Positions 8,776-47,430 of a stretch of DNA of 64,000 nucleotides are shown here, one piece after another. The position numbers and the translations under genes are program-made. The first letter of the stretch is position 1. Every line of letters starts with the position of its first letter. Source of the DNA: an uncultured virus (IMG/VR IMGVR_UViG_3300044641_005651). Its lineage: Duplodnaviria; Heunggongvirae; Uroviricota; Caudoviricetes. The notes under the pieces are model-generated. The model did not search any database. It saw only the letters and a program-made list of their open reading frames with translations, and was not told where the DNA came from. Where the stretch lies: the IMG/VR virus record IMGVR_UViG_3300044641_005651, one strand, 5' to 3'.

Positions 8776-9453
8776 TTAATCTTCACGCCGCTGACCCAGG
8801 AGTTGTAAGAGATGGATGAATATATTGATAAAGTCTAGGTAGAGCGTAAGAGCCCCGAAGATGCTGCTACGAGCCTGAGAACTGAATCCATAGACTAATC
8901 CACTTGAGTAGTATTCTTCTGATAATCTTTGAGTATCATAGGCAGTAAGACCTGTGAAGATTAGGACTGCTAGTACAGAGACGATCCAGCTAAGCATAGA
9001 AGAACCTAGGAACAGGTTGACTACGGATGCCACTACGATACCGATTAGGCCTATAAAGAGAAACCCTCCTAGAGAGGTTAAGTCCCTCTTAGTAGAGTAT
9101 CCATAGAGGCTTGCTGCTGCGAAAACGCTAGTAGAGATTAAGAGCACTTGAACTATGCTGCCTAGGGTGAAGATTAAGAAGATTGAACTTAGGCTTAAAC
9201 CCGTAGCGGTTGCATAGAGATAGAATACTAGGTGTGCAACTGTCTCAGACATCCTATCCATGAAATTTAAGGCTAAGACGAATGCTAGGGGTAGGAAAGC
9301 TAAGACGATATTAAAACTACCTAGTGTGGCTACCCAAGGAGCGGCTACCCAGGCGGTTAGCGCTGTAACTAGGAGCGCAGTGGTCATCTTGTTGTAGACG
9401 CCGATGAGATATGACCTAAGACCCTCATCTACGGTTTGTGTAATTGTATTCAT
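8776..9453 (-). CDS. Bax inhibitor-1/YccA family membrane protein
   Basis: Seven hydrophobic segments, TAYDTQ and ALTLYLDFINIF; start moved to MNTITQ after GAGGG. Confidence 0.9.
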   Translation of the reverse strand: MNTITQTVDEGLRSYLIGVYNKMTTALLVTALTAWVAAPWVATLGSFNIVLAFLPLAFVLALNFMDRMSETVAHLVFYLYATATGLSLSSIFLIFTLGSIVQVLLISTSVFAAASLYGYSTKRDLTSLGGFLFIGLIGIVVASVVNLFLGSSMLSWIVSVLAVLIFTGLTAYDTQRLSEEYYSSGLVYGFSSQARSSIFGALTLYLDFINIFIHLLQLLGQRRED

Positions 9454-9484
9454 TTTTCCCTCTAACGCGTAGAGTCCGGCAGCG

Positions 9485-9646
9485 TTAGCTACCAGACTCT
9501 TCATCCTCTCTAGACATGAGCTTATCAAGATCTTCTCGGCTGATCCAAAAGATTTGGCTGTCTACCTTGACTTGAGCATAACTGTCGTCAATGTGAACAA
9601 CTTGTCCTTTGTTGCCTTCTACCTTGATATCTTTAAAAATTTGCAC
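9485..9646 (-). CDS. Small hypothetical protein, 53 aa, not in the ORF track
   Basis: Manual translation VQIFKDIKVEGNKGQVVHIDDSYAQVKVDSQIFWISREDLDKLMSREDEESGS fills the gap between genes. Confidence 0.5.
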   Translation of the reverse strand: MQIFKDIKVEGNKGQVVHIDDSYAQVKVDSQIFWISREDLDKLMSREDEESGS

Positions 9647-9839: not shown

Positions 9840-10145
9840 TCACCTTTCGGCTGAGACTTTCTTCCTCAAGGGAATTACCTCGTGGCAATGTTCACGATAT
9901 AGTCTAGGTAGATCCCTGGGACACTCGACGTCAGCTTTCCAAACTGGGGCTAGGCGCTTAGCTTTCAAGGCTGTTGCGACTAGTCTACCCATTTCATACT
10001 GCATCTGACTAGAAAAATCTAAGAGGTCATATCCTTTAGCCCACGGGAGACCTAGATATGCGTGCTGGTAACCTATCTTAAAAGGGTAGTTACCTTTGAA
10101 ATAATTTCGATCAGCTTTTACAAGCCTGACTTTACTGTTGAACAT
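9840..10145 (-). CDS. Hypothetical protein
   Basis: ORF directly after a TTGCTT-N-TATAAT promoter, probably leaderless. Confidence 0.6.
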   Translation of the reverse strand: MFNSKVRLVKADRNYFKGNYPFKIGYQHAYLGLPWAKGYDLLDFSSQMQYEMGRLVATALKAKRLAPVWKADVECPRDLPRLYREHCHEVIPLRKKVSAER

Positions 10146-10273: not shown

Positions 10274-10349
10274 TGGTGTCCCGAGTCAGACTCGAACTGA
10301 CAGAAAACGATTTTTGAGAACGTCGCGTTTACCTTTTCGCCATCGGGAC
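10274..10349 (-). tRNA. tRNA-Leu(CAA) lacking the long variable arm
   Basis: Loop CTCAAAA, short variable region, A73, CCA. Confidence 0.8.
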
Positions 10350-10402: not shown

Positions 10403-10849
10403 TCAGAACTTTAGAGCAATACCAGCGGTAACGCTCTCTCTAAGATCGTTGTTATCAACGGAGTTGACCCTACGATAACGTAGATCTAGGTCTAGAGTCT
10501 TAGTTAGTTCGGTACGAACTCCAGCTCCTAGGACATAGAGAGGCTTACTATCTAGAGACTCTAGATCAGCCCCTAGACCTACTAGAACATAGGGAGTAAT
10601 CCCAGTTGTAGGAATAGTAGCCTGAGGCATTACATGACCGTAAAGGTTATGCACCTTGCTGTCGACACGATACTCATAAGCACCCTCTACACGAAGATTC
10701 TTATTTAGATCTGTTCCAACAGCTAGGCCTAGGGTATTTTCCCTAGCTCCCTCTACCTGAGTTCCTAGATTACCAGCAACATATACGTCACCAGCTAGGG
10801 CAGAACTTGCAGCTAGAGAAGCTACAAGCGCGATTACATACTTATTCAT
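10403..10849 (-). CDS. Outer-membrane beta-barrel protein (OmpA-like 8-stranded family)
   Basis: Signal peptide, amphipathic strands (LRVEGAYEY, TPYVLVGLG), C-terminal Phe. Confidence 0.8.
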   Translation of the reverse strand: MNKYVIALVASLAASSALAGDVYVAGNLGTQVEGARENTLGLAVGTDLNKNLRVEGAYEYRVDSKVHNLYGHVMPQATIPTTGITPYVLVGLGADLESLDSKPLYVLGAGVRTELTKTLDLDLRYRRVNSVDNNDLRESVTAGIALKF

Positions 10850-10871
10850 TTATTTTTTCTTTCTCCTGATT

Positions 10872-10946
10872 TGGAAGCCCTGACCGGATTTGCACCGGCG
10901 TTGACGCCTTGAGAGGGCGTTATCCTAACTACTAGATGACAGGGCC
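10872..10946 (-). tRNA. tRNA-Glu(CTC)
   Basis: acgcc-CTCTCAA-ggcgt, CCA. Confidence 0.85.
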
Positions 10947-10950
10947 GTTT

Positions 10951-11042
10951 TGGTGGAGGCTACTCGACTTGCACAAGTTGTCCGGACTACCCCTACTGTT
11001 TAAGGACGCCCGTTTTACAGACGGGTGTAGGGAATAGCCTCC
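10951..11042 (-). tRNA. Atypical tRNA-Tyr(GTA) without a D-arm
   Basis: Acceptor GGAGGCT/AGCCTCC-ACCA, cccgt-CTGTAAA-acggg, T-arm present, about 30-nt variable region, no D hairpin. Confidence 0.7.
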
Positions 11043-11083
11043 ATGTTATTTACATTTTATCAAAAGCTTAACCATATAGCAAC

Positions 11084-11503
11084 TTATTTTTTATCTAAGT
11101 TAGACCAGTTAAGTATTTGATCTAAGGTCGTCGAGTATAAACCATATTTTGTTACTAGTTTATGAACTCTAGGGGCGATGGTATGTCTGAATAACATCTC
11201 CTCTTTGCGACTTTTTTCGACTAGAGAATAAGGTTTACCGGCAATATAAGCTCTCGCTAATTCCGTTGCGCGAGATTCATTTCTGACATCCCATCTACGA
11301 TGGGTTATCAACCCTAATCGTTTAATATGCAGACCATATAGTTCACGATGTTTTTTATATACTGTATCGGAATGAAGGTCTTCAGTTATTTGATGATAGA
11401 CCTTATAGTGGTCGATCTGTTTTTTAAGCTTGCGCTCTTCTCGTTTAATAATGCTAGGCTCAAACGCAAGATGCTTAGCTTTAATTTTTAGTTCTATACT
11501 CAT
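11084..11503 (-). CDS. Basic hypothetical protein, 139 aa, downstream of the amber leader
   Basis: ORF with GAGGAG RBS that lies within a predicted hairpin. Confidence 0.8.
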   Translation of the reverse strand: MSIELKIKAKHLAFEPSIIKREERKLKKQIDHYKVYHQITEDLHSDTVYKKHRELYGLHIKRLGLITHRRWDVRNESRATELARAYIAGKPYSLVEKSRKEEMLFRHTIAPRVHKLVTKYGLYSTTLDQILNWSNLDKK

Positions 11504-11505
11504 AG

Positions 11506-11548
11506 AATCTCCTCTTTTTTATAGTTTATAGTTGGAAAAGAGAAGATT
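11506..11548 (-). promoter_or_regulatory. RBS-sequestering hairpin
   Basis: AAUCUUCUCUUUU (11548-11536) pairs with AAAAGAGGAGAUU (11518-11506): 13 bp with one GU pair. Confidence 0.75.
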
Positions 11549-11584
11549 AGGAGGCCCTCTGGCCTAGGCTGTCTGCTTAAACAT
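11519..11584 (-). CDS. Leader peptide with in-frame amber codon: MFKQTA*(UAG)ARGPPNLLFSNYKL
   Basis: GAGGA RBS, ATG at 11584, TAG at 11566-11564, then codons for ARGPP, TAA at 11521-11519. Confidence 0.7.
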
Positions 11585-11597
11585 GTTTCCTCAAATT

Positions 11598-11671
11598 TGG
11601 TGCCTCTCAGGGGATTTGAACCCCTCTACTCCGTTTTAGAGACGGTCGCATAGCCACTCTGCCAGAGAGAC
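11598..11671 (-). tRNA. Amber suppressor tRNA (anticodon CTA)
   Basis: gtctctc/gagaggc acceptor, ccgt-CTCTAAA-acgg anticodon arm, GGTTCAAATCC T-arm, ACCA. Confidence 0.85.
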
Positions 11672-11840: not shown

Positions 11841-12353
11841 TTAATTTTGTGGTAAAAGAGAAGTAGGAGGACCTAAAGTAGTCTGCCCCCACCTATCTGA
11901 TGGCCACATAGGAAGAACTGTTTGAGGTTTAGACTTTGCTTTAATAAGCGCAGCCATTTCCTTATATCCATCCGCAGTAGGATGAATACCGTCCTTACCT
12001 AATTTAACTGTCTCAATTAGTGTATCACTAAACATTGTTGACAAAGATTGCACAACATAGTTAGCTTCCTTATTACAGAATATATCATTACAAGGAGGAT
12101 TAATCCAAATAATATTTGAAGATTTAATCTTATCTCGTACAGATAGAATTTGCAATAACTGTTCTTGTAGAGTTAACCCTTTATCATTTGTTCCTAGGCT
12201 AACTACTACAGTAGCAGCTTTTAGATCTACATGACCGAAGGTTTTACTCCAGTTAGAACTACTAATACCAACAACACTATAATTTTTACATTCAGGATAA
12301 GCCATACTTATCCCTTTGGCAATACTATCGCCTAGAATAATGCATTCTAACAT
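11841..12353 (-). CDS. SGNH/GDSL hydrolase
   Basis: GDSI, LGTND and DGIHPT blocks; start moved to MLECII because the longer ORF overlaps tRNA-Gly. Confidence 0.8.
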   Translation of the reverse strand: MLECIILGDSIAKGISMAYPECKNYSVVGISSSNWSKTFGHVDLKAATVVVSLGTNDKGLTLQEQLLQILSVRDKIKSSNIIWINPPCNDIFCNKEANYVVQSLSTMFSDTLIETVKLGKDGIHPTADGYKEMAALIKAKSKPQTVLPMWPSDRWGQTTLGPPTSLLPQN

Positions 12354-12356
12354 AAT

Positions 12357-12430
12357 TGGAGCGGAGTACGAGATTCGAACTCGTTTAGCCAGCTTGGAAG
12401 GCTGGAGCACAACCTATATGCCAACTCCGC
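12357..12430 (-). tRNA. tRNA-Gly(TCC)
   Basis: ccagc-CTTCCAA-gctgg, CCA. Confidence 0.9.
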
Positions 12431-12639: not shown

Positions 12640-12863
12640 GCTAGCTATCACGTCTTAGCTAGCACTGTCAGTATTTCGACTTGTCGCGACAAGTATCTGA
12701 CTATTGACTGAAAAACCTTCTTTCTGGAAAATACAGCCCAACACTATGTTGGTCTCAATAATGAAAAATAAGGTTAGTCAGTCGGTATACACACAAGCGT
12801 GACTCCAACACGCATTTTCGAGTTAAAGGCTCGACGTCCTATGGTTAGACGACAGTGTGTATA
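12640..12863 (-). ncRNA. tRNA-like element (TTT loop, extended acceptor stem, no CCA) followed by a multi-hairpin tail
   Basis: D, anticodon (tcgag-CCTTTAA-ctcga) and T arms at 12786-12863; further stems to about 12640. Confidence 0.5.
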
Positions 12864-13340: not shown

Positions 13341-13505
13341 TTAATTGTGCCGGACTGCTACTACACCGGCTTTCATCTCATAGCCATTAATTTTCTTAGC
13401 GGGCCAAGGACGAAAACGTCTCCATTTAGGATTTTTTAGATCCTGCGTAGATGCGTAATATTCTTTAGGGAACTTTTTTAGTTGAATAACTGTTTCTTCG
13501 GTCAT
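13341..13505 (-). CDS. Small basic hypothetical protein, 54 aa, not in the ORF track
   Basis: MTEETVIQLKKFPKEYY..., coupled to the upstream gene by TAATG. Confidence 0.5.
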   Translation of the reverse strand: MTEETVIQLKKFPKEYYASTQDLKNPKWRRFRPWPAKKINGYEMKAGVVAVRHN

Positions 13506-13732
13506 TAGATTCCAATCACTTTATTAGCCATTTCTCTTGCCTTTTGGCGGTGTAGGCTTATATCACTGCCAAGATATACATAATTAGACTTATGCATAGG
13601 CATAATCTGTTTACTACGAGCTTGCGCTTTTAAGCGAGCTTGATGTTCTCCGCAACTAAGACAAATAGTTATCCCGAGAGCAAATCTGCCCTCGGGATAT
13701 TCATCTCCACAATCTTCGCAATATGCAATCAT
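13505..13732 (-). CDS. DksA/TraR-like C4 zinc-finger protein
   Basis: CEDCGDEYPEGR...CLSC. Confidence 0.6.
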   Translation of the reverse strand: MIAYCEDCGDEYPEGRFALGITICLSCGEHQARLKAQARSKQIMPMHKSNYVYLGSDISLHRQKAREMANKVIGI

Positions 13733-13772
13733 AAATATATTATAGTATATTTAAGACTAATCATCAAAAAGA

Positions 13773-13976
13773 TTACTTAAATTTTTCGTATGAATAATCA
13801 CTTACAGTCACATCGTAAGGTTTAGTGCTAACAACACCAACTTCTTCTGAGTGACCTATGGCTTTAAGGAAGTCGTTAAACTTATCTACCATGTAACCAA
13901 GATTAGGAGATCTAAAAGATAAGGTGATTTCGTTGTCGTCATCGTCTGAATAGTTAAAATTAATTCTAGGGTTCAT
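13773..13976 (-). CDS. Hypothetical protein
   Basis: ORF coupled by ATGA; FNDFLKAIG motif. Confidence 0.6.
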   Translation of the reverse strand: MNPRINFNYSDDDDNEITLSFRSPNLGYMVDKFNDFLKAIGHSEEVGVVSTKPYDVTVSDYSYEKFK

Positions 13977-14254
13977 GGTAGCTCTTCTATAGTAGTAAAA
14001 CCACTTCTCATTACTTGTTCATCGTTCCAATTCTTTAGATAATCATTATCTTCCTTAAAGAGCTTAATAGCATCTTTTTTAGAGATAACCCTAGAAGATG
14101 TTATAACATCTCCTAAGTGTTTTTGAGAAAATTCTTTTGCTTGTTCCATAGTTACAGTATCTTCTGCCCAAGAAGTTTTACCTTCTGGTACTTCTACTAG
14201 ATATCTCATGCGATGTTGAGATATTGTTTCAACAAGTATAAATTCAGTTTTCAT
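13973..14254 (-). CDS. Phage hypothetical protein
   Basis: LVETISQHRMRYLVEVP...EFSQKHLG. Confidence 0.65.
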   Translation of the reverse strand: MKTEFILVETISQHRMRYLVEVPEGKTSWAEDTVTMEQAKEFSQKHLGDVITSSRVISKKDAIKLFKEDNDYLKNWNDEQVMRSGFTTIEELP

Positions 14255-23237: not shown

Positions 23238-23331
23238 TGGTAGTCCCACCAGGATTCGAACCTGGACTGCTCTCTAATCTGGAGACAATGCCGAATATAA
23301 GTCGGGTGTTCTACCGTTAAACTATGGGACC
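23238..23331 (-). tRNA. tRNA-Ile(TAT) with an extra arm carrying a CAGAUUA loop
   Basis: ccga-CTTATAT-tcgg, then tctc-CAGATTA-gaga; 94 nt, CCA. Confidence 0.8.
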
Positions 23332-24185: not shown

Positions 24186-25032
24186 AGGAAAGCTGAGATT
24201 ACACTTTCTATATTAGCACTTCAAGAGGTACCCTCTATTTGCAGTAGAGGTTTTCTTGACATCCACCAGATGCCTGCTAAGGTCACCCAGTATACCAACA
24301 GTATCGCCTTTTAAAGTCTGGCAGTAGACTTGACGTTATACGCTACTCTATATTATACCGTCCGCTGACCTTGCGAGCCATTAAGCCTTGCGAGCTACGA
24401 ATTTTTTAATATAAACTGATTTCACCTTGCGGGTTACATCAGACCAAGTTCTCTTTCGAGCTTGGTATTAGATACCTTTCACATATAACCGAGGCAGACT
24501 TTGCTTTTTTAAAACATTGACTGGATTTGAACCAGCGTCCGTTTGCTTCCAACGCAAATGCTCATCCACTGAGCTACAATAATAACCTACTGCGATGTGC
24601 TGCCTCGTTGCTCCGTATGGTTTTGACATACAAAATACAACACACCACGTATCTTTCGCGACGCGCGCTACTCGATCGTATTTTGCGACGATGTATAAGC
24701 ATTTATAGCTTATCCACTACCGCTGATACTGCAAAAATGCCTTTAGTTGCTTAAACTTCAGACAGAGATGCTACCCTTTGTTCTACCAACTGCTAGATTG
24801 GTGTTGTAGTGAAGTCGGCACCACCCGTTACATTCCAATAACTTAGGTTCCCCTTTCGGGCCTATAAGCTATCGTTTTCTCACTACACCTAGTTCATTGT
24901 TACCTCCGTTGCCGAAGGCTAGGAACTGGGCTTGCTTAAGTGGGCCACTCGGAGAGTGGTGCGGTTATGTAGGGATTACCGCTTTTATCACATTACTGTG
25001 ACTATCCTTATGGGGCTTAAGCGCCCCAACTC
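24186..25032 (-). ncRNA. GOLLD-like giant structured RNA, about 850 nt
   Basis: No credible ORF; many GNRA-capped hairpins (gcaa, gaaa); segments AAAGCAAAGUCUGCCUCGGUUAUA and terminal AAAGUGUAAUCUCAGC recalled from GOLLD; tRNA-array context; own promoter. Confidence 0.7.
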
Positions 25033-25476: not shown

Positions 25477-25552
25477 TGGTGCCCCAGACAAGACTTGCAC
25501 TTGTTTCCTTACCCTTACCAAGGGTCTGTTCAGCTATATGAACTTCAGGGGC
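25477..25552 (-). tRNA. tRNA-Thr(GGT)
   Basis: accc-TTGGTAA-gggt, CCA. Confidence 0.85.
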
Positions 25553-26131: not shown

Positions 26132-26221
26132 TGGCGGAGTGATGGCGGAATCGAACCCCTGGCCCGTAGGCTCCAACCGCTTTCAAGGCGGTGCTAGTAT
26201 CCCCGACTAGACATGCACTCC
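26132..26221 (-). tRNA. tRNA-Ser(TGA)
   Basis: accgc-CTTGAAA-gcggt, long variable arm, CCA. Confidence 0.85.
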
Positions 26222-46119: not shown

Positions 46120-46409
46120 CTGACGTCGATATTGTTTTAGCACAAGCAAGAAGATTATATCATCATTATACTAATTTAGAATCTCCTAATAGACAATTCT
46201 CTAGAGTAGCTGATGATTTTGGTTCGATAGTAGAAAATTTAGAATACATTCAATCAAAATTACATAGTGTTTCAACTAAAACATAACTACTTTAAAGGTC
46301 AAGTCGTAGAATTTAGTTATAATTACTGGTCCATCTATAATGAGGCTGGTAAGCTAATTCTGACTACTAAAGATAAAAAATATGCTGAGGCTAAATTGCA
46401 ACAACTAAA

Positions 46410-46697
46410 TAAGGCTTTAGCAGACAAGATCTCGTTGATAGCAGCGAAATAAGCATACTGGACACGGGGGCAGTGCCCGTCATCTCCACCATAAATATGT
46501 CGATTAGTAAACATTGACATATTTATAATGGGGATGAATTAGGATCGACAGGTGTGTAAAGGTTGAAGTAGAGATAGGTGCGCGAGCGACCTCTAATCGC
46601 AAGAAATCAATAAATGCTAACGATAATAGCATCGAAGAGATCCGCCTAGCGGCATAACTTCTGCGGTATGGGCTCCACCGTATTACCCAACGGGCCT
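46410..46697 (+). ncRNA. ssrA: Two-piece (permuted) tmRNA
   Basis: Acceptor piece ends CATCTCCACCA (46491); intervening hairpin; coding piece starts GGGGATG (46530, G3-U70); tag ANDNSIEEIRLAA* at 46616-46657; 5' boundary approximate. Confidence 0.9.
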
Positions 46698-46719
46698 ATT
46701 CCTTTTAGAAAGATTTTTA

Positions 46720-47430
46720 ATGTTTATTTATTGGAGAGTATGCGAATTACAAAAATCTATTAGCTACGTTAATAGATGGAAAAACTATAACAAAACAGAC
46801 ATCTTAAAAAGATGCTGGTTATCAGTTCAGAGTAGCGTATCTCCAGACGATCAAATCTATCTAATAGAAGATAATGTAACCCATGAGACTTTAACTTGGT
46901 TAAGAGAGACGTGCAAAGCAAAGCTAAGTATCATACACGTACCAGAACATGCATGGGAATATCATCAACATACAGTAACCTTGATAGATACGCTAGAATC
47001 CTCTGTTAAACAGTATGAGCAAGATGTTCATCTTATTTTAGAAGATGATTATCTGTTTACTCCAAACGGATTAAATACTTTTAAGTTGTCCGCTGAAAAT
47101 TGGAATCAAGGATTTATAGCTCCTTACGACTATATTGATAGATATAAAGAAATAAAACCCACTCAAGTTCTTTTAGGCCCAGATAGACATTGGCGTACAG
47201 TAGATAGTATTACTATGACTGTAGCAGCCAAAGGTTTTATCTGGGTTAAGTATTTAAAAGACTTAAAAGATGCAGCTCCTACCAGCAATGATAAAGTCTT
47301 CGATAAGATTTTATCTGAAGTGCCATGTATCTCTCCAATGCCTTCTTTATGCAGTCATCTTACCGAACATCATAATAGTCCTTACATGGATATAGAAAAT
47401 ATCTGGAAATATTACGAGAACAATCTATGA
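46720..47430 (+). CDS. GT-A fold glycosyltransferase-like protein
   Basis: LILEDDY; first gene of the glycosylation cluster. Confidence 0.6.
   Translation: MFIYWRVCELQKSISYVNRWKNYNKTDILKRCWLSVQSSVSPDDQIYLIEDNVTHETLTWLRETCKAKLSIIHVPEHAWEYHQHTVTLIDTLESSVKQYEQDVHLILEDDYLFTPNGLNTFKLSAENWNQGFIAPYDYIDRYKEIKPTQVLLGPDRHWRTVDSITMTVAAKGFIWVKYLKDLKDAAPTSNDKVFDKILSEVPCISPMPSLCSHLTEHHNSPYMDIENIWKYYENNL

What the first reader, a model, noticed from the sequence alone, without database searches (positions are those of the whole stretch)
10951..11042. tRNA-Tyr whose D-arm appears replaced by a long-range pairing
Acceptor (7 bp plus ACCA), GUA anticodon arm and T-arm are intact. Only AUUCCCUACA lies where the D-arm should be. 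Its UCCCUAC is complementary to GUAGGGG inside an enlarged variable region closed by GUCC/GGAC, which gives a pseudoknot-like alternative core. It is the only Tyr tRNA in a set that otherwise covers every amino acid, and it follows the amber-controlled gene.
Basis: partly seen in the sequence, partly recalled or inferred. Interest (0 to 1): 0.7.

Follow-up and report, generated by a model that had tools for sequence, protein, structure and literature searches.

The report
Rewired tyrosine tRNA in phages
This phage carries a tyrosine tRNA with no ordinary D hairpin: one strand next to the anticodon arm pairs with the loop of the variable arm. The same design is kept in other phages and in bacterial tRNA gene arrays, yet the standard tRNA finders tried here do not see it.

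Summary
Window 10951-11042 (- strand) is a 92-nt tRNA-Tyr(GUA)-like gene that ARAGORN and the Rfam tRNA model at E<=1 both miss.

I collected 23 distinct homologues from lake phages, metagenome contigs and bacterial genomes. Covariation supports:
- an 8-bp acceptor stem and a 4-bp T stem (8/4, not 7/5);
- a normal anticodon arm;
- a 6-bp long-range helix, RNA positions 11-16 with 47-52, paired in 99.3% of cells, with 4 of 6 pairs changed on both sides;
- a 3-4-bp variable stem (GUCN/NGAC) that crosses this helix, giving a pseudoknot.

The competing local hairpin of the single-sequence fold is not conserved.

The gene is conserved more strongly than its flanks: 91/92 identical, against 67-89%. 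A73 is invariant. The gene fills the Tyr slot in tRNA arrays that have no other Tyr.

Best reading: a working tRNA-Tyr whose D stem is assembled "in trans" from the variable loop. More speculatively, this shields the variable loop from Septu/retron PtuAB-type nucleases, which cut tRNA-Tyr there.

Seven searches of the held paper library found no description. I file it as a new variant of a known kind.

The parts
10951..11042 (-). Whole gene: 92-nt non-canonical tRNA-Tyr(GUA). RNA position p corresponds to window coordinate 11043-p.
   Evidence: Sequence. Scores 106.4 bits with model R1 and 98.9 bits with R2, while canonical tRNAs score at most 21.8 bits with R1. Not called by ARAGORN or by Rfam RF00005 at E<=1.
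11035..11042 (-). Acceptor stem, 5' strand (RNA 1-8, GGAGGCUA).
   Evidence: 8 bp with 10955-10962. 98.9% of cells are paired and 7 of 8 pairs changed on both sides. Pair 8:81 is standard in 23/23 sequences (GC 11, UG 5, AU 4, UA 3). RNAalifold predicts the same.
11033..11034 (-). Two-nucleotide linker U9 U10.
   Evidence: U10 is found in 23/23 sequences and U9 in 20/23.
11027..11032 (-). Long-range helix ('helix X'), 5' strand (RNA 11-16, CCCUAC). It leads through A17 into the anticodon stem.
   Evidence: Pairs with 10991-10996. 99.3% of cells are paired over 23 sequences, and 4 of 6 pairs changed on both sides. Alignment-free test.
11026..11026 (-). A17, opposite C35 (window 11008). Probably a wobble-geometry pair between helix X and the anticodon stem, like 26:44 of ordinary tRNAs.
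   Evidence: The 17:35 combination is A.C in 16, G.U in 4 and A.G in 3 sequences. That A.C and G.U are isosteric is established knowledge; that they pair here is inference.
11009..11025 (-). Anticodon arm (RNA 18-34): 5-bp stem CCCGU/ACGGG and loop CUGUAAA. The anticodon GUA lies at 11016-11018.
   Evidence: Sequence. The stem is 98.3% paired, with 4 of 5 pairs changed on both sides. The loop is CUGUAAA in 20, CUGUAAC in 2 and UUGUAAA in 1 of 23; most search patterns required this loop.
11004..11007 (-). Variable stem, 5' strand (RNA 36-39, GUCC).
   Evidence: Pairs with 10980-10983 (GGAC). 89.1% of cells are paired. The outer pair takes CG 5, UG 4, UA 3, AU 1, GC 1 and is unpaired in 9. It crosses helix X, which makes the pseudoknot.
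10997..11003 (-). Loop L2 (RNA 40-46, UUAAACA): the A-rich link from the variable stem to the 3' strand of helix X.
   Evidence: 124 of 170 loop residues in the family are A; length 6-9 nt. Docking into a helix groove is inference.
10991..10996 (-). Helix X, 3' strand (RNA 47-52, GUAGGG), inside the enlarged variable loop.
10984..10990 (-). Loop L3 (RNA 53-59, GUAGUCC): G/U-rich, 3-9 nt in the family.
   Evidence: Composition G 47, U 47, A 20, C 12. Any role as a stand-in for the D loop is speculation.
10980..10983 (-). Variable stem, 3' strand (RNA 60-63, GGAC).
10963..10977 (-). T arm (RNA 66-80): 4-bp stem CUUG/CGAG and 7-nt loop UGCAAGU.
   Evidence: The stem is 96.7% paired, with 3 of 4 pairs changed on both sides. 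Seven different T loops occur in the family. The same UGCAAGU loop is found in ordinary tRNAs of this phage and of other phages.
10955..10962 (-). Acceptor stem, 3' strand (RNA 81-88, UAGCCUCC).
10951..10954 (-). Discriminator A73-equivalent (10954) and encoded CCA (10951-10953).
   Evidence: The discriminator is A in 23/23 sequences. CCA is encoded in 12/23.

Best explanation
It is a working tyrosine tRNA with a rewired core.

Shown by sequence and covariation:
- an 8-bp acceptor stem, then U9 U10;
- a 6-nt strand (11-16) that runs through A17 straight into a normal 5-bp anticodon stem with loop CUGUAAA;
- after the anticodon arm, C35 and a short variable stem (GUCC/GGAC);
- a 20-nt variable loop that carries the partner strand (47-52) of positions 11-16;
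- a 4-bp T stem, discriminator A and CCA.

Inferred:
- The 11-16/47-52 helix stacks on the anticodon stem through an A17.C35 wobble-type pair. It thus takes the place of the D stem in the anticodon limb of the L shape.
- Its second strand is supplied in trans from the variable loop instead of from a D hairpin.
- The A-rich loop L2 docks in a groove and locks the pseudoknot.
- The RNA is made with the neighbouring tRNAs, charged by the host TyrRS (A73, G1-C72, GUA anticodon, a variable stem) and reads UAY codons.

More speculative: burying the variable loop in a helix protects this tRNA-Tyr from host nucleases that cut tRNA-Tyr in the variable loop. It would then serve as a nuclease-proof spare in phages and in accessory tRNA arrays.
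For: Structure:
- 23 distinct homologues align without ambiguity (A6).
- 97.1% of 621 pair cells are standard pairs, against 71.7% in shuffles (0 of 500 shuffles reach it). Sliding the partners by 1-3 columns gives 38-53%.
- Helix X is 99.3% paired. Its pair types are CG/UA/UG/AU, CG/UA/GU/GC, AU/CG/GC/UA and CG/UA/UG, and 17 different strand pairs occur.
- RNAalifold recovers the 8-bp acceptor, helix X, the anticodon stem and the 4-bp T stem by itself.
- The first divergent members came from patterns that left the helix-X positions free.

Selection:
- Against relative L130 the gene is 91/92 identical. The adjacent spacers are 67-75% identical, tRNA-Glu 86.5% and the ORFs 68-89%.
- Contigs of 4 RNA-library runs cover it with no listed difference inside 10951-11042, and many in the ORF next to it.

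tRNA identity:
- A73 in 23/23, G1-C72 in 22/23, GUA anticodon in 23/23, A37 in 23/23.

Use as the Tyr member of a tRNA set:
- The window's record (72 kb, 29 Rfam tRNAs) has no other Tyr.
- The arrays in L236, L237, L238 and L239-L246 (2-29 tRNAs each) have no other Tyr.
- Ten related phage loci that carry an ordinary tRNA-Tyr (L022-L029, L031, L035) lack this form in the about 6 kb held.
- A 62-kb phage record estimated 90% complete has this as its only detectable tRNA.

Anti-nuclease idea:
- Septu and retron-Eco7 PtuAB cut E. coli tRNA-Tyr in the variable loop or stem. T5/SP15 phage tRNA-Tyr escapes, and its longer variable loop is required for that (passages of PMC13096335 and of PMC12673091).
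Against: - No direct evidence of a mature, CCA-ended, aminoacylated species. The RNA-library evidence is contigs only, and DNA carry-over is not excluded.
- There is no D loop, so the usual G18/G19 contacts with the T loop cannot form as in ordinary tRNAs. How the elbow is built is unknown.
- One member (L139) has T loop AUUAUAA, far from the usual consensus.
- On its own the window sequence folds best into a different structure: -34.2 kcal/mol, against -27.9 for the nested model with helix X.
- 11 of the 12 bacterial genomes that hold it also matched an ordinary tRNA-Tyr; G159 did not match the strict pattern. One 285-kb phage has an ordinary tRNA-Tyr 17 nt upstream of it. So it is not needed as the sole Tyr tRNA there.
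- Most search patterns required the Tyr anticodon loop, so its constancy is partly built in.
- The link to tRNA-targeting defence is by analogy only. No such nuclease was looked for in the hosts, which are unknown for the phages.
Confidence: 0.78

Rival explanations
1. A tRNA-shaped decoy or sponge that is not used in translation. It binds, and so titrates or inhibits, a host factor that recognises tRNA-Tyr, such as a defence nuclease, a toxin or TyrRS itself. It keeps the tRNA-Tyr recognition features but has lost the D loop needed for normal ribosome function.
For: It sits beside an ordinary tRNA-Tyr in one phage and co-exists with housekeeping tRNA-Tyr in 11 of the 12 bacterial genomes checked. 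One 62-kb phage carries it as its only tRNA. The authors of PMC13096335 discuss phage tRNA-Tyr acting 'as a decoy or supplement'. The elbow contacts are uncertain, and the T loop is aberrant in L139.
Against: In most arrays it is the only Tyr member of otherwise broad tRNA sets. Related phages have either this form or an ordinary one in the stretches held. The anticodon stem covaries like that of a working tRNA, and A37, A73 and CCA are kept. A decoy would not need all of these.
Confidence: 0.12
2. A decaying tRNA-Tyr pseudogene that lost its D arm by deletion. On this view the complementarity with the variable region is fortuitous.
For: The standard finders reject it. The single-sequence minimum-energy fold is not a cloverleaf.
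Against: 23 distinct sequences keep all five helices through compensatory changes. The gene is conserved above its flanks. It occurs in phages and bacteria of several lineages.
Confidence: 0.02
3. A D-armless tRNA with the long-range helix but without the variable stem, so no pseudoknot, or with 7/5 rather than 8/4 stems. That is, the details of the model are wrong while the class is right.
For: Three of the four variable-stem pairs hardly vary, and most search patterns fixed CGTC and GAC. The outer pair is unpaired in 9 of 23 sequences. In the window itself A65-U81 could pair instead of A8-U81.
Against: The outer variable-stem pair takes CG, UG, UA, AU and GC, and pair 37:62 takes UA or UG. 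Pair 8:81 is standard in 23/23, against 7/15 for the 7/5 register. Members found by covariance model rather than by pattern keep GUC/GAC.
Confidence: 0.08

Closest known systems
Ordinary bacterial and phage tRNA-Tyr (class II, long variable arm)
   Same: GUA anticodon in a CUGUAAA loop, discriminator A, G1-C72, a stem in the variable region and an encoded CCA. It sits in phage tRNA clusters. Ordinary examples from related phages appear.
   Different: There is no D hairpin. The stems are 8/4 instead of 7/5. The variable loop is about 20 nt and pairs with the strand 5' of the anticodon stem. RF00005 and ARAGORN do not recognise it.
(8/4) tRNAs and allo-tRNAs (Mukai et al. 2017, PMC5389517; abstract and passages read, supplement text searched)
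   Same: A 12-bp acceptor branch split 8/4. Found in phage tRNA clusters and some bacteria. Long variable arm. A 6-bp 'D stem' length, as in tRNA-Sec-like species.
   Different: Those have a normal D hairpin (long stem with a tetraloop) and are described for Ser, His, Cys, Sec and suppressors. Tyr appears only in a reference title of the main text, and not at all in the supplement text held. Here the D stem is made with the variable loop. The window's own tRNA-His is an ordinary 7/5 type.
D-armless mitochondrial tRNAs, e.g. nematode mt-tRNA-Ser (review PMC7609411, passages read)
   Same: No D hairpin; a short connector lies between the acceptor and anticodon stems.
   Different: The review describes the mitochondrial connector as a flexible region that replaces the D arm. 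Here the connector is a conserved helix strand with a partner elsewhere. The full-size T arm and the variable stem are kept, and the setting is phages and bacteria. That review has 0 occurrences of 'phage' or 'pseudoknot'.
Phage T5/SP15 tRNA-Tyr that escapes retron-Eco7/Septu PtuAB (PMC11555353, PMC12673091, PMC13096335; passages read)
   Same: A phage-borne tRNA-Tyr whose altered variable loop is the feature that matters.
   Different: Those are ordinary cloverleaf tRNAs with a somewhat longer variable loop, and their function has been shown by experiment. Here the variable loop is built into the core, and nothing has been tested.
Bacterial tRNA-Sec
   Same: 8-bp acceptor stem, 6-bp D stem and long variable arm (as described in PMC7609411 and PMC5389517).
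   Different: tRNA-Sec has a D hairpin and a 13-bp acceptor branch; its UCA anticodon is recalled, not taken from a call. This RNA has a GUA anticodon, a 12-bp branch and no D hairpin.

Membership tests
tRNA (Rfam RF00005 / canonical cloverleaf) | Acceptor stem closed by a discriminator base and a 3' CCA (encoded or added) | tested here: met
   8-bp stem, 98.9% paired. The discriminator is A in 23/23 and CCA is encoded in 12/23.
tRNA (Rfam RF00005 / canonical cloverleaf) | Anticodon arm: 5-bp stem, 7-nt loop with U33 and a purine at 37 | tested here: met
   CCCGU/ACGGG with loop CUGUAAA. The stem is 98.3% paired, with 4 of 5 pairs covarying.
tRNA (Rfam RF00005 / canonical cloverleaf) | T arm: 5-bp stem and 7-nt loop | tested here: inconclusive
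   The 7-nt loop is present, but the stem is 4 bp; the fifth pair has moved to the acceptor stem.
tRNA (Rfam RF00005 / canonical cloverleaf) | D arm: a local hairpin between position 9 and position 26 | tested here: not met
   Only 9 nt (U9-A17) lie there. Their partner is at 47-52.
tRNA (Rfam RF00005 / canonical cloverleaf) | Score at or above the family's gathering cut-off (29 bits) | tested here: not met
   No RF00005 match over 10951-11042 at E<=1. None either at the members in G002-G005. ARAGORN called 0 of 17 loci that each hold one member.
Bacterial tRNA-Tyr identity set | Anticodon GUA | tested here: met
   23/23, although most search patterns required it. The pattern did not, and its 5 true hits all have it.
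Bacterial tRNA-Tyr identity set | Discriminator A73 and G1-C72 (that these are identity features is recalled, not taken from a call) | tested here: met
   A in 23/23; G-C in 22/23.
Bacterial tRNA-Tyr identity set | Long variable arm presented to TyrRS | tested here: inconclusive
   A 3-4-bp variable stem is present, but its loop is engaged in helix X. Its orientation is unknown.
Bacterial tRNA-Tyr identity set | Aminoacylation with tyrosine | not testable with these tools
   No experiment was possible.
(8/4) tRNAs of Mukai et al. | 8-bp acceptor stem and 4-bp T stem (12-bp branch) | tested here: met
   Pair 8:81 is standard in 23/23; the T stem is 4 bp and 96.7% paired. RNAalifold predicts the same.
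(8/4) tRNAs of Mukai et al. | A D stem-loop (in allo-tRNAs a long stem with a tetraloop) | tested here: not met
   No local hairpin. Described in the passage of PMC5389517.
D-armless (mitochondrial-type) tRNAs | D arm replaced by a flexible connector region | tested here: not met
   Six of the 9 connector residues form a conserved, covarying helix.

The most novel reading that the evidence does not exclude
A new tRNA topology arose once and spread on phages and mobile tRNA arrays as a counter-defence. The D stem is assembled from the strand 5' of the anticodon stem and the loop of the variable arm. [quoted passage not shown] It also shows that bacterial ribosomes, EF-Tu and TyrRS accept a tRNA with no D loop.
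Probability: 0.3. Interest if true: 0.9.

Novelty: new variant of a known kind. Interest (0 to 1): 0.8.

Why it matters
- It widens the set of tRNA architectures seen outside mitochondria. The D stem is kept but wired differently, which bears on which parts of the tRNA core translation really needs.
- The tRNA finders tried here (ARAGORN and the Rfam tRNA model) miss it, so phage and array tRNA sets appear to lack Tyr when they do not.
- tRNA-Tyr is a proven target of anti-phage nucleases that cut its variable loop. This gives a concrete, testable candidate for a structurally protected spare tRNA.
- One copy lies in a bacterial genome whose record is not labelled a MAG and so appears to be from a cultured strain (Alteromonadaceae bacterium M269). 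If so, expression and charging can be tested directly.
- It may also offer a scaffold for engineered orthogonal tRNAs.

Tried and rejected
- blastn of 10700-11300 against the phage GenBank collection found no match.
- The first pattern, built on the window's own D-side strand, gave 19 stretches, of which only 1 was a homologue.
- No whole genome is held for the window. The nearest virus record, G001 (72 kb), added no tRNA outside the window.
- The strict pattern found nothing in genome contigs. A second pattern with a GTTCRA T loop found 5 stretches, 4 of them real.
- Local hairpin 37-42/48-53 of the minimum-energy fold: rejected. It is 63.6% paired, and 217 of 500 shuffles do as well.
- 7/5 reading of the acceptor and T stems: rejected in favour of 8/4.
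- U10.G53 as a seventh pair of the long-range helix: not conserved.
- TAG recoding in this phage: not supported for this stretch. The ORFs that carry annotation or family matches here (8776-9528, 9840-10145, 10403-10849, 11084-11503, 11841-12410, 13505-14254) read the same under TAG=Q, and only unannotated frames lengthen. TAG ends 6 of 35 long ORFs.
- RNA-library contigs of 4 runs cover the gene. They are contigs, show no ends or strand, and may derive from DNA, so expression is not shown.
- The family search around the Alteromonadaceae genome found the RNA in 1 of 121 genomes, the query genome itself, with reduced filters.
- Earlier notes of this scan held nothing.
- Literature searches and targeted reading turned up no description of this form. 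Subscription-only papers and figure images are not covered.

Full report
**What is at the site.** On the minus strand, 11042 down to 10951 reads as a 92-nt tRNA-like gene. Its parts are:
- an acceptor stem;
- only nine or ten nucleotides where the D arm belongs;
- a regular anticodon arm (CCCGU / CUGUAAA / ACGGG, anticodon GUA);
- a 30-nt variable region;
- a T arm with loop UGCAAGU;
- discriminator A and CCA.

It lies in a run of tRNA genes on the same strand. ARAGORN lists 28 tRNAs and a tmRNA in the window but not this one. The Rfam tRNA model gives no match here even at E<=1. Folded alone, the sequence prefers a non-cloverleaf structure (-34.2 kcal/mol, z = -2.85). The window is phage DNA: it has PHROG matches to DNA ligase, DnaB helicase, primase and exonuclease, and 37% G+C. 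It occurs in lake-water metagenomes.

**Finding relatives.** The phage GenBank collection gave nothing. Pattern scans and neighbour-protein searches did.
- A near-identical copy lies in one IMG/VR contig.
- Twenty-two more distant relatives of the upstream 139-aa ORF carry ordinary tRNA-Tyr genes instead.
- A pattern on the anticodon loop, the T loop and ACCA gave 72 stretches, mostly ordinary phage tRNA-Tyr. Four held the rearranged form, including a divergent 94-nt version.
- Further patterns that left the disputed positions free added more members:
  - 5 true of 9 stretches in viral contigs;
  - 9 true of 10 in metagenome contigs;
  - 9 true of 54 in viral contigs, with a pattern on the 5' half;
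  - 0 stretches, then 4 true of 5, in genome contigs.
- A covariance model built from the first seven sequences (R1) scores members at 46.8 bits or more and ordinary tRNAs at 21.8 bits or less. It found the RNA in 9 of 151 genomes of the class of the Fuerstiella MAG (G009).
- A second model (R2) aligned 23 distinct sequences (A6).

**Structure.** Counted on A6 with a pseudoknot notation, 97.1% of 621 pair cells are standard pairs, against 71.7% in shuffles (0 of 500 reach it). Sliding the partners gives 38-53%.

| Helix | Paired | Covariation |
|---|---|---|
| Long-range helix (RNA 11-16 with 47-52) | 99.3% | 4 of 6 pairs changed on both sides, up to four pair types each |
| Acceptor stem, 8 bp | 98.9% | Pair 8:81 standard in 23/23 (GC 11, UG 5, AU 4, UA 3) |
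| T stem, 4 bp | 96.7% | 3 of 4 pairs changed on both sides |
| Variable stem (36-39 with 60-63) | 89.1% | Outer pair takes CG, UG, UA, AU and GC |

- Seventeen different strand pairs occur in the long-range helix.
- The pair that a 7/5 reading needs forms in only 7 of 15 sequences.
- The variable stem crosses the long-range helix, so the fold is a pseudoknot.
- RNAalifold, which cannot see the pseudoknot, predicts the 8-bp acceptor, the long-range helix, the anticodon stem and the 4-bp T stem by itself.
- A17 and C35 flank the anticodon stem. They occur as A.C (16), G.U (4) or A.G (3). A.C and G.U share wobble geometry, which suggests a pair that lets the long-range helix stack on the anticodon stem.
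- The loop leading into the 3' strand of the long-range helix is 73% A.

**Controls and rejected alternatives.**
- The local hairpin favoured by the single-sequence fold is no better than shuffles (63.6% paired; 217 of 500 shuffles as good).
- Without any alignment, 15 of 15 sequences tested hold a perfect complement to their own 11-16 strand in the variable region. Per sequence, 0.6-8% of shuffled variable regions do.
- In nearest-neighbour terms the long-range helix adds about 6.8 kcal/mol and the variable stem about 4.5 kcal/mol to the bare three-helix frame.
- Caveat: several invariant blocks (UUCC, CGUC, GAC, the anticodon loop) were required by my patterns. The members found by covariance model relax some of them: U9 becomes C or A, and C35 becomes U or G.

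**Selection and distribution.**
- Against the more distant relative L130, the gene is 91/92 identical. The spacers beside it are 67-75% identical, the next tRNA 86.5% and the flanking ORFs 68-89%.
- The RNA occurs in:
  - at least nine IMG/VR contigs and nine metagenome contigs, some of about 300 kb;
  - a 62-kb phage record estimated 90% complete, in which it is the only detectable tRNA;
  - a 285-kb phage, where an ordinary tRNA-Tyr sits 17 nt upstream;
  - tRNA arrays of 2-29 genes in Planctomycetia, a Flavobacteriales MAG and a Pirellulaceae MAG, none with another Tyr;
  - a stand-alone position among ordinary chromosomal genes in Alteromonadaceae bacterium M269, and in none of the 120 other genomes of its family that were sampled.
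- Of the 12 bacterial genomes that hold it, 11 also matched an ordinary tRNA-Tyr. G159 did not match the strict pattern.
- ARAGORN called none of the 17 loci that each hold one member.

**How it most likely works.**
- Shown: the helices, their covariation, the invariant A73, G1-C72 and the GUA anticodon, and the gene's place as the Tyr member of tRNA sets.
- Inferred: the long-range helix plus the 17:35 pair stack on the anticodon stem and stand in for the D stem. The strand that continues into the anticodon stem comes straight from the acceptor stem, and its partner comes from the variable loop. The A-rich loop stabilises the knot. Host TyrRS charges the RNA, and it reads UAY.
- The 8/4 split, the 6-bp 'D stem' and the extra pair on the anticodon stem recall tRNA-Sec-like and allo-tRNAs.
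- Speculative: the design protects the variable loop. Septu and retron-Eco7 PtuAB cut E. coli tRNA-Tyr at U47/C48-A49 of the variable loop or stem. Phage tRNA-Tyr with a different, longer variable loop escapes, and that loop is required (PMC13096335 passages; PMC12673091 passages; PMC11555353 passages). Accessory tRNA arrays have themselves been proposed as back-up or anti-defence sets (abstracts of PMC8421152 and PMC12803027 in the listing; passages of the former).

**Comparison with what is known, and novelty.**
- It works like a class II tRNA-Tyr but fails the D-arm feature and the score cut-offs of the tRNA family.
- It shares the 8/4 branch with the tRNAs of Mukai et al. Those have a D hairpin and were reported for Ser, His and others, not Tyr.
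- It lacks a D hairpin like some mitochondrial tRNAs, but its connector is a conserved helix strand.
- Seven full-text searches and the targeted readings found no description of such a tRNA. The library lacks most subscription journals, and figures are not held.
- I rate it a new variant of a known kind, of high interest to tRNA and phage-defence specialists.

**What is missing.** Expression of a mature RNA, charging, decoding and the three-dimensional fold all remain unshown. RNA-library contigs cover the gene but cannot show transcription.

Noticed in passing
window 24190-24648 (-): A GOLLD RNA (Rfam RF02032, 205 bits) lies inside the tRNA cluster, with a tRNA-Pro(UGG) gene embedded at 24512-24583.
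   Followed up: no
window 46399-46748 (+): The phage carries a permuted, alphaproteobacterial-type tmRNA with tag ANDNSIEEIRLAA. The Flavobacteriales-MAG array L237 also holds a tmRNA.
   Followed up: no
window 11084-11671 (-); loci L020-L042: A tRNA with anticodon CUA (amber-reading) sits about 90-190 nt upstream of a conserved 139-aa ORF in all 23 related loci. The ORF has no Pfam or PHROG match and no internal TAG. One RNA-library contig joins 11114 to 11614; it thus lacks most of the ORF and the 3' end of that tRNA. So the pair may be gained and lost together.
   Followed up: partly
window 26132-26221 (-): A tRNA-Ser(UGA)-like gene is missed by ARAGORN and by Rfam at the gathering cut-off. 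It has a D arm and a long variable arm. Its acceptor stem pairs as 9 bp only if C7 bulges out, and its T stem has a G.G mismatch, which recalls the tRNA-Sec-like or allo-tRNA forms. A search for relatives was too unspecific.
   Followed up: partly
window 23238-23331 (-); also L028 1419-1513, L039 1068-1162, L237 5454-5546: A 93-95-nt tRNA with anticodon UAU (Ile) has a long, stem-forming variable arm, unusual for tRNA-Ile. It recurs in related phage arrays.
   Followed up: no
window 10274-10349 (-): A tRNA with anticodon CAA (Leu) is only 76 nt long, without the long variable arm of bacterial tRNA-Leu. Relatives have the same 76-79-nt form.
   Followed up: no
window 12789-12859 (-) and 25480-25552 (-): Two further tRNAs are seen by Rfam only (40.6 and 43 bits): one with a UUU anticodon in an odd loop CCUUUAA, and one with anticodon GGU (Thr). 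The Thr tRNA has a U.U in the acceptor stem and the same UGCAAGU T loop as the Tyr gene.
   Followed up: partly
loci L240, L243, L244 (Planctomycetia tRNA arrays): The arrays that hold the rewired tRNA-Tyr also hold tRNAs with A34 anticodons that ARAGORN labels Phe(AAA) and Cys(ACA).
   Followed up: no
window 8776-9528 (-) and 10403-10849 (-): Two phage-borne membrane-protein genes lie among the tRNAs: a Bax1-I family protein (E = 2e-51) and an outer-membrane beta-barrel protein with a signal-like N terminus.
   Followed up: no
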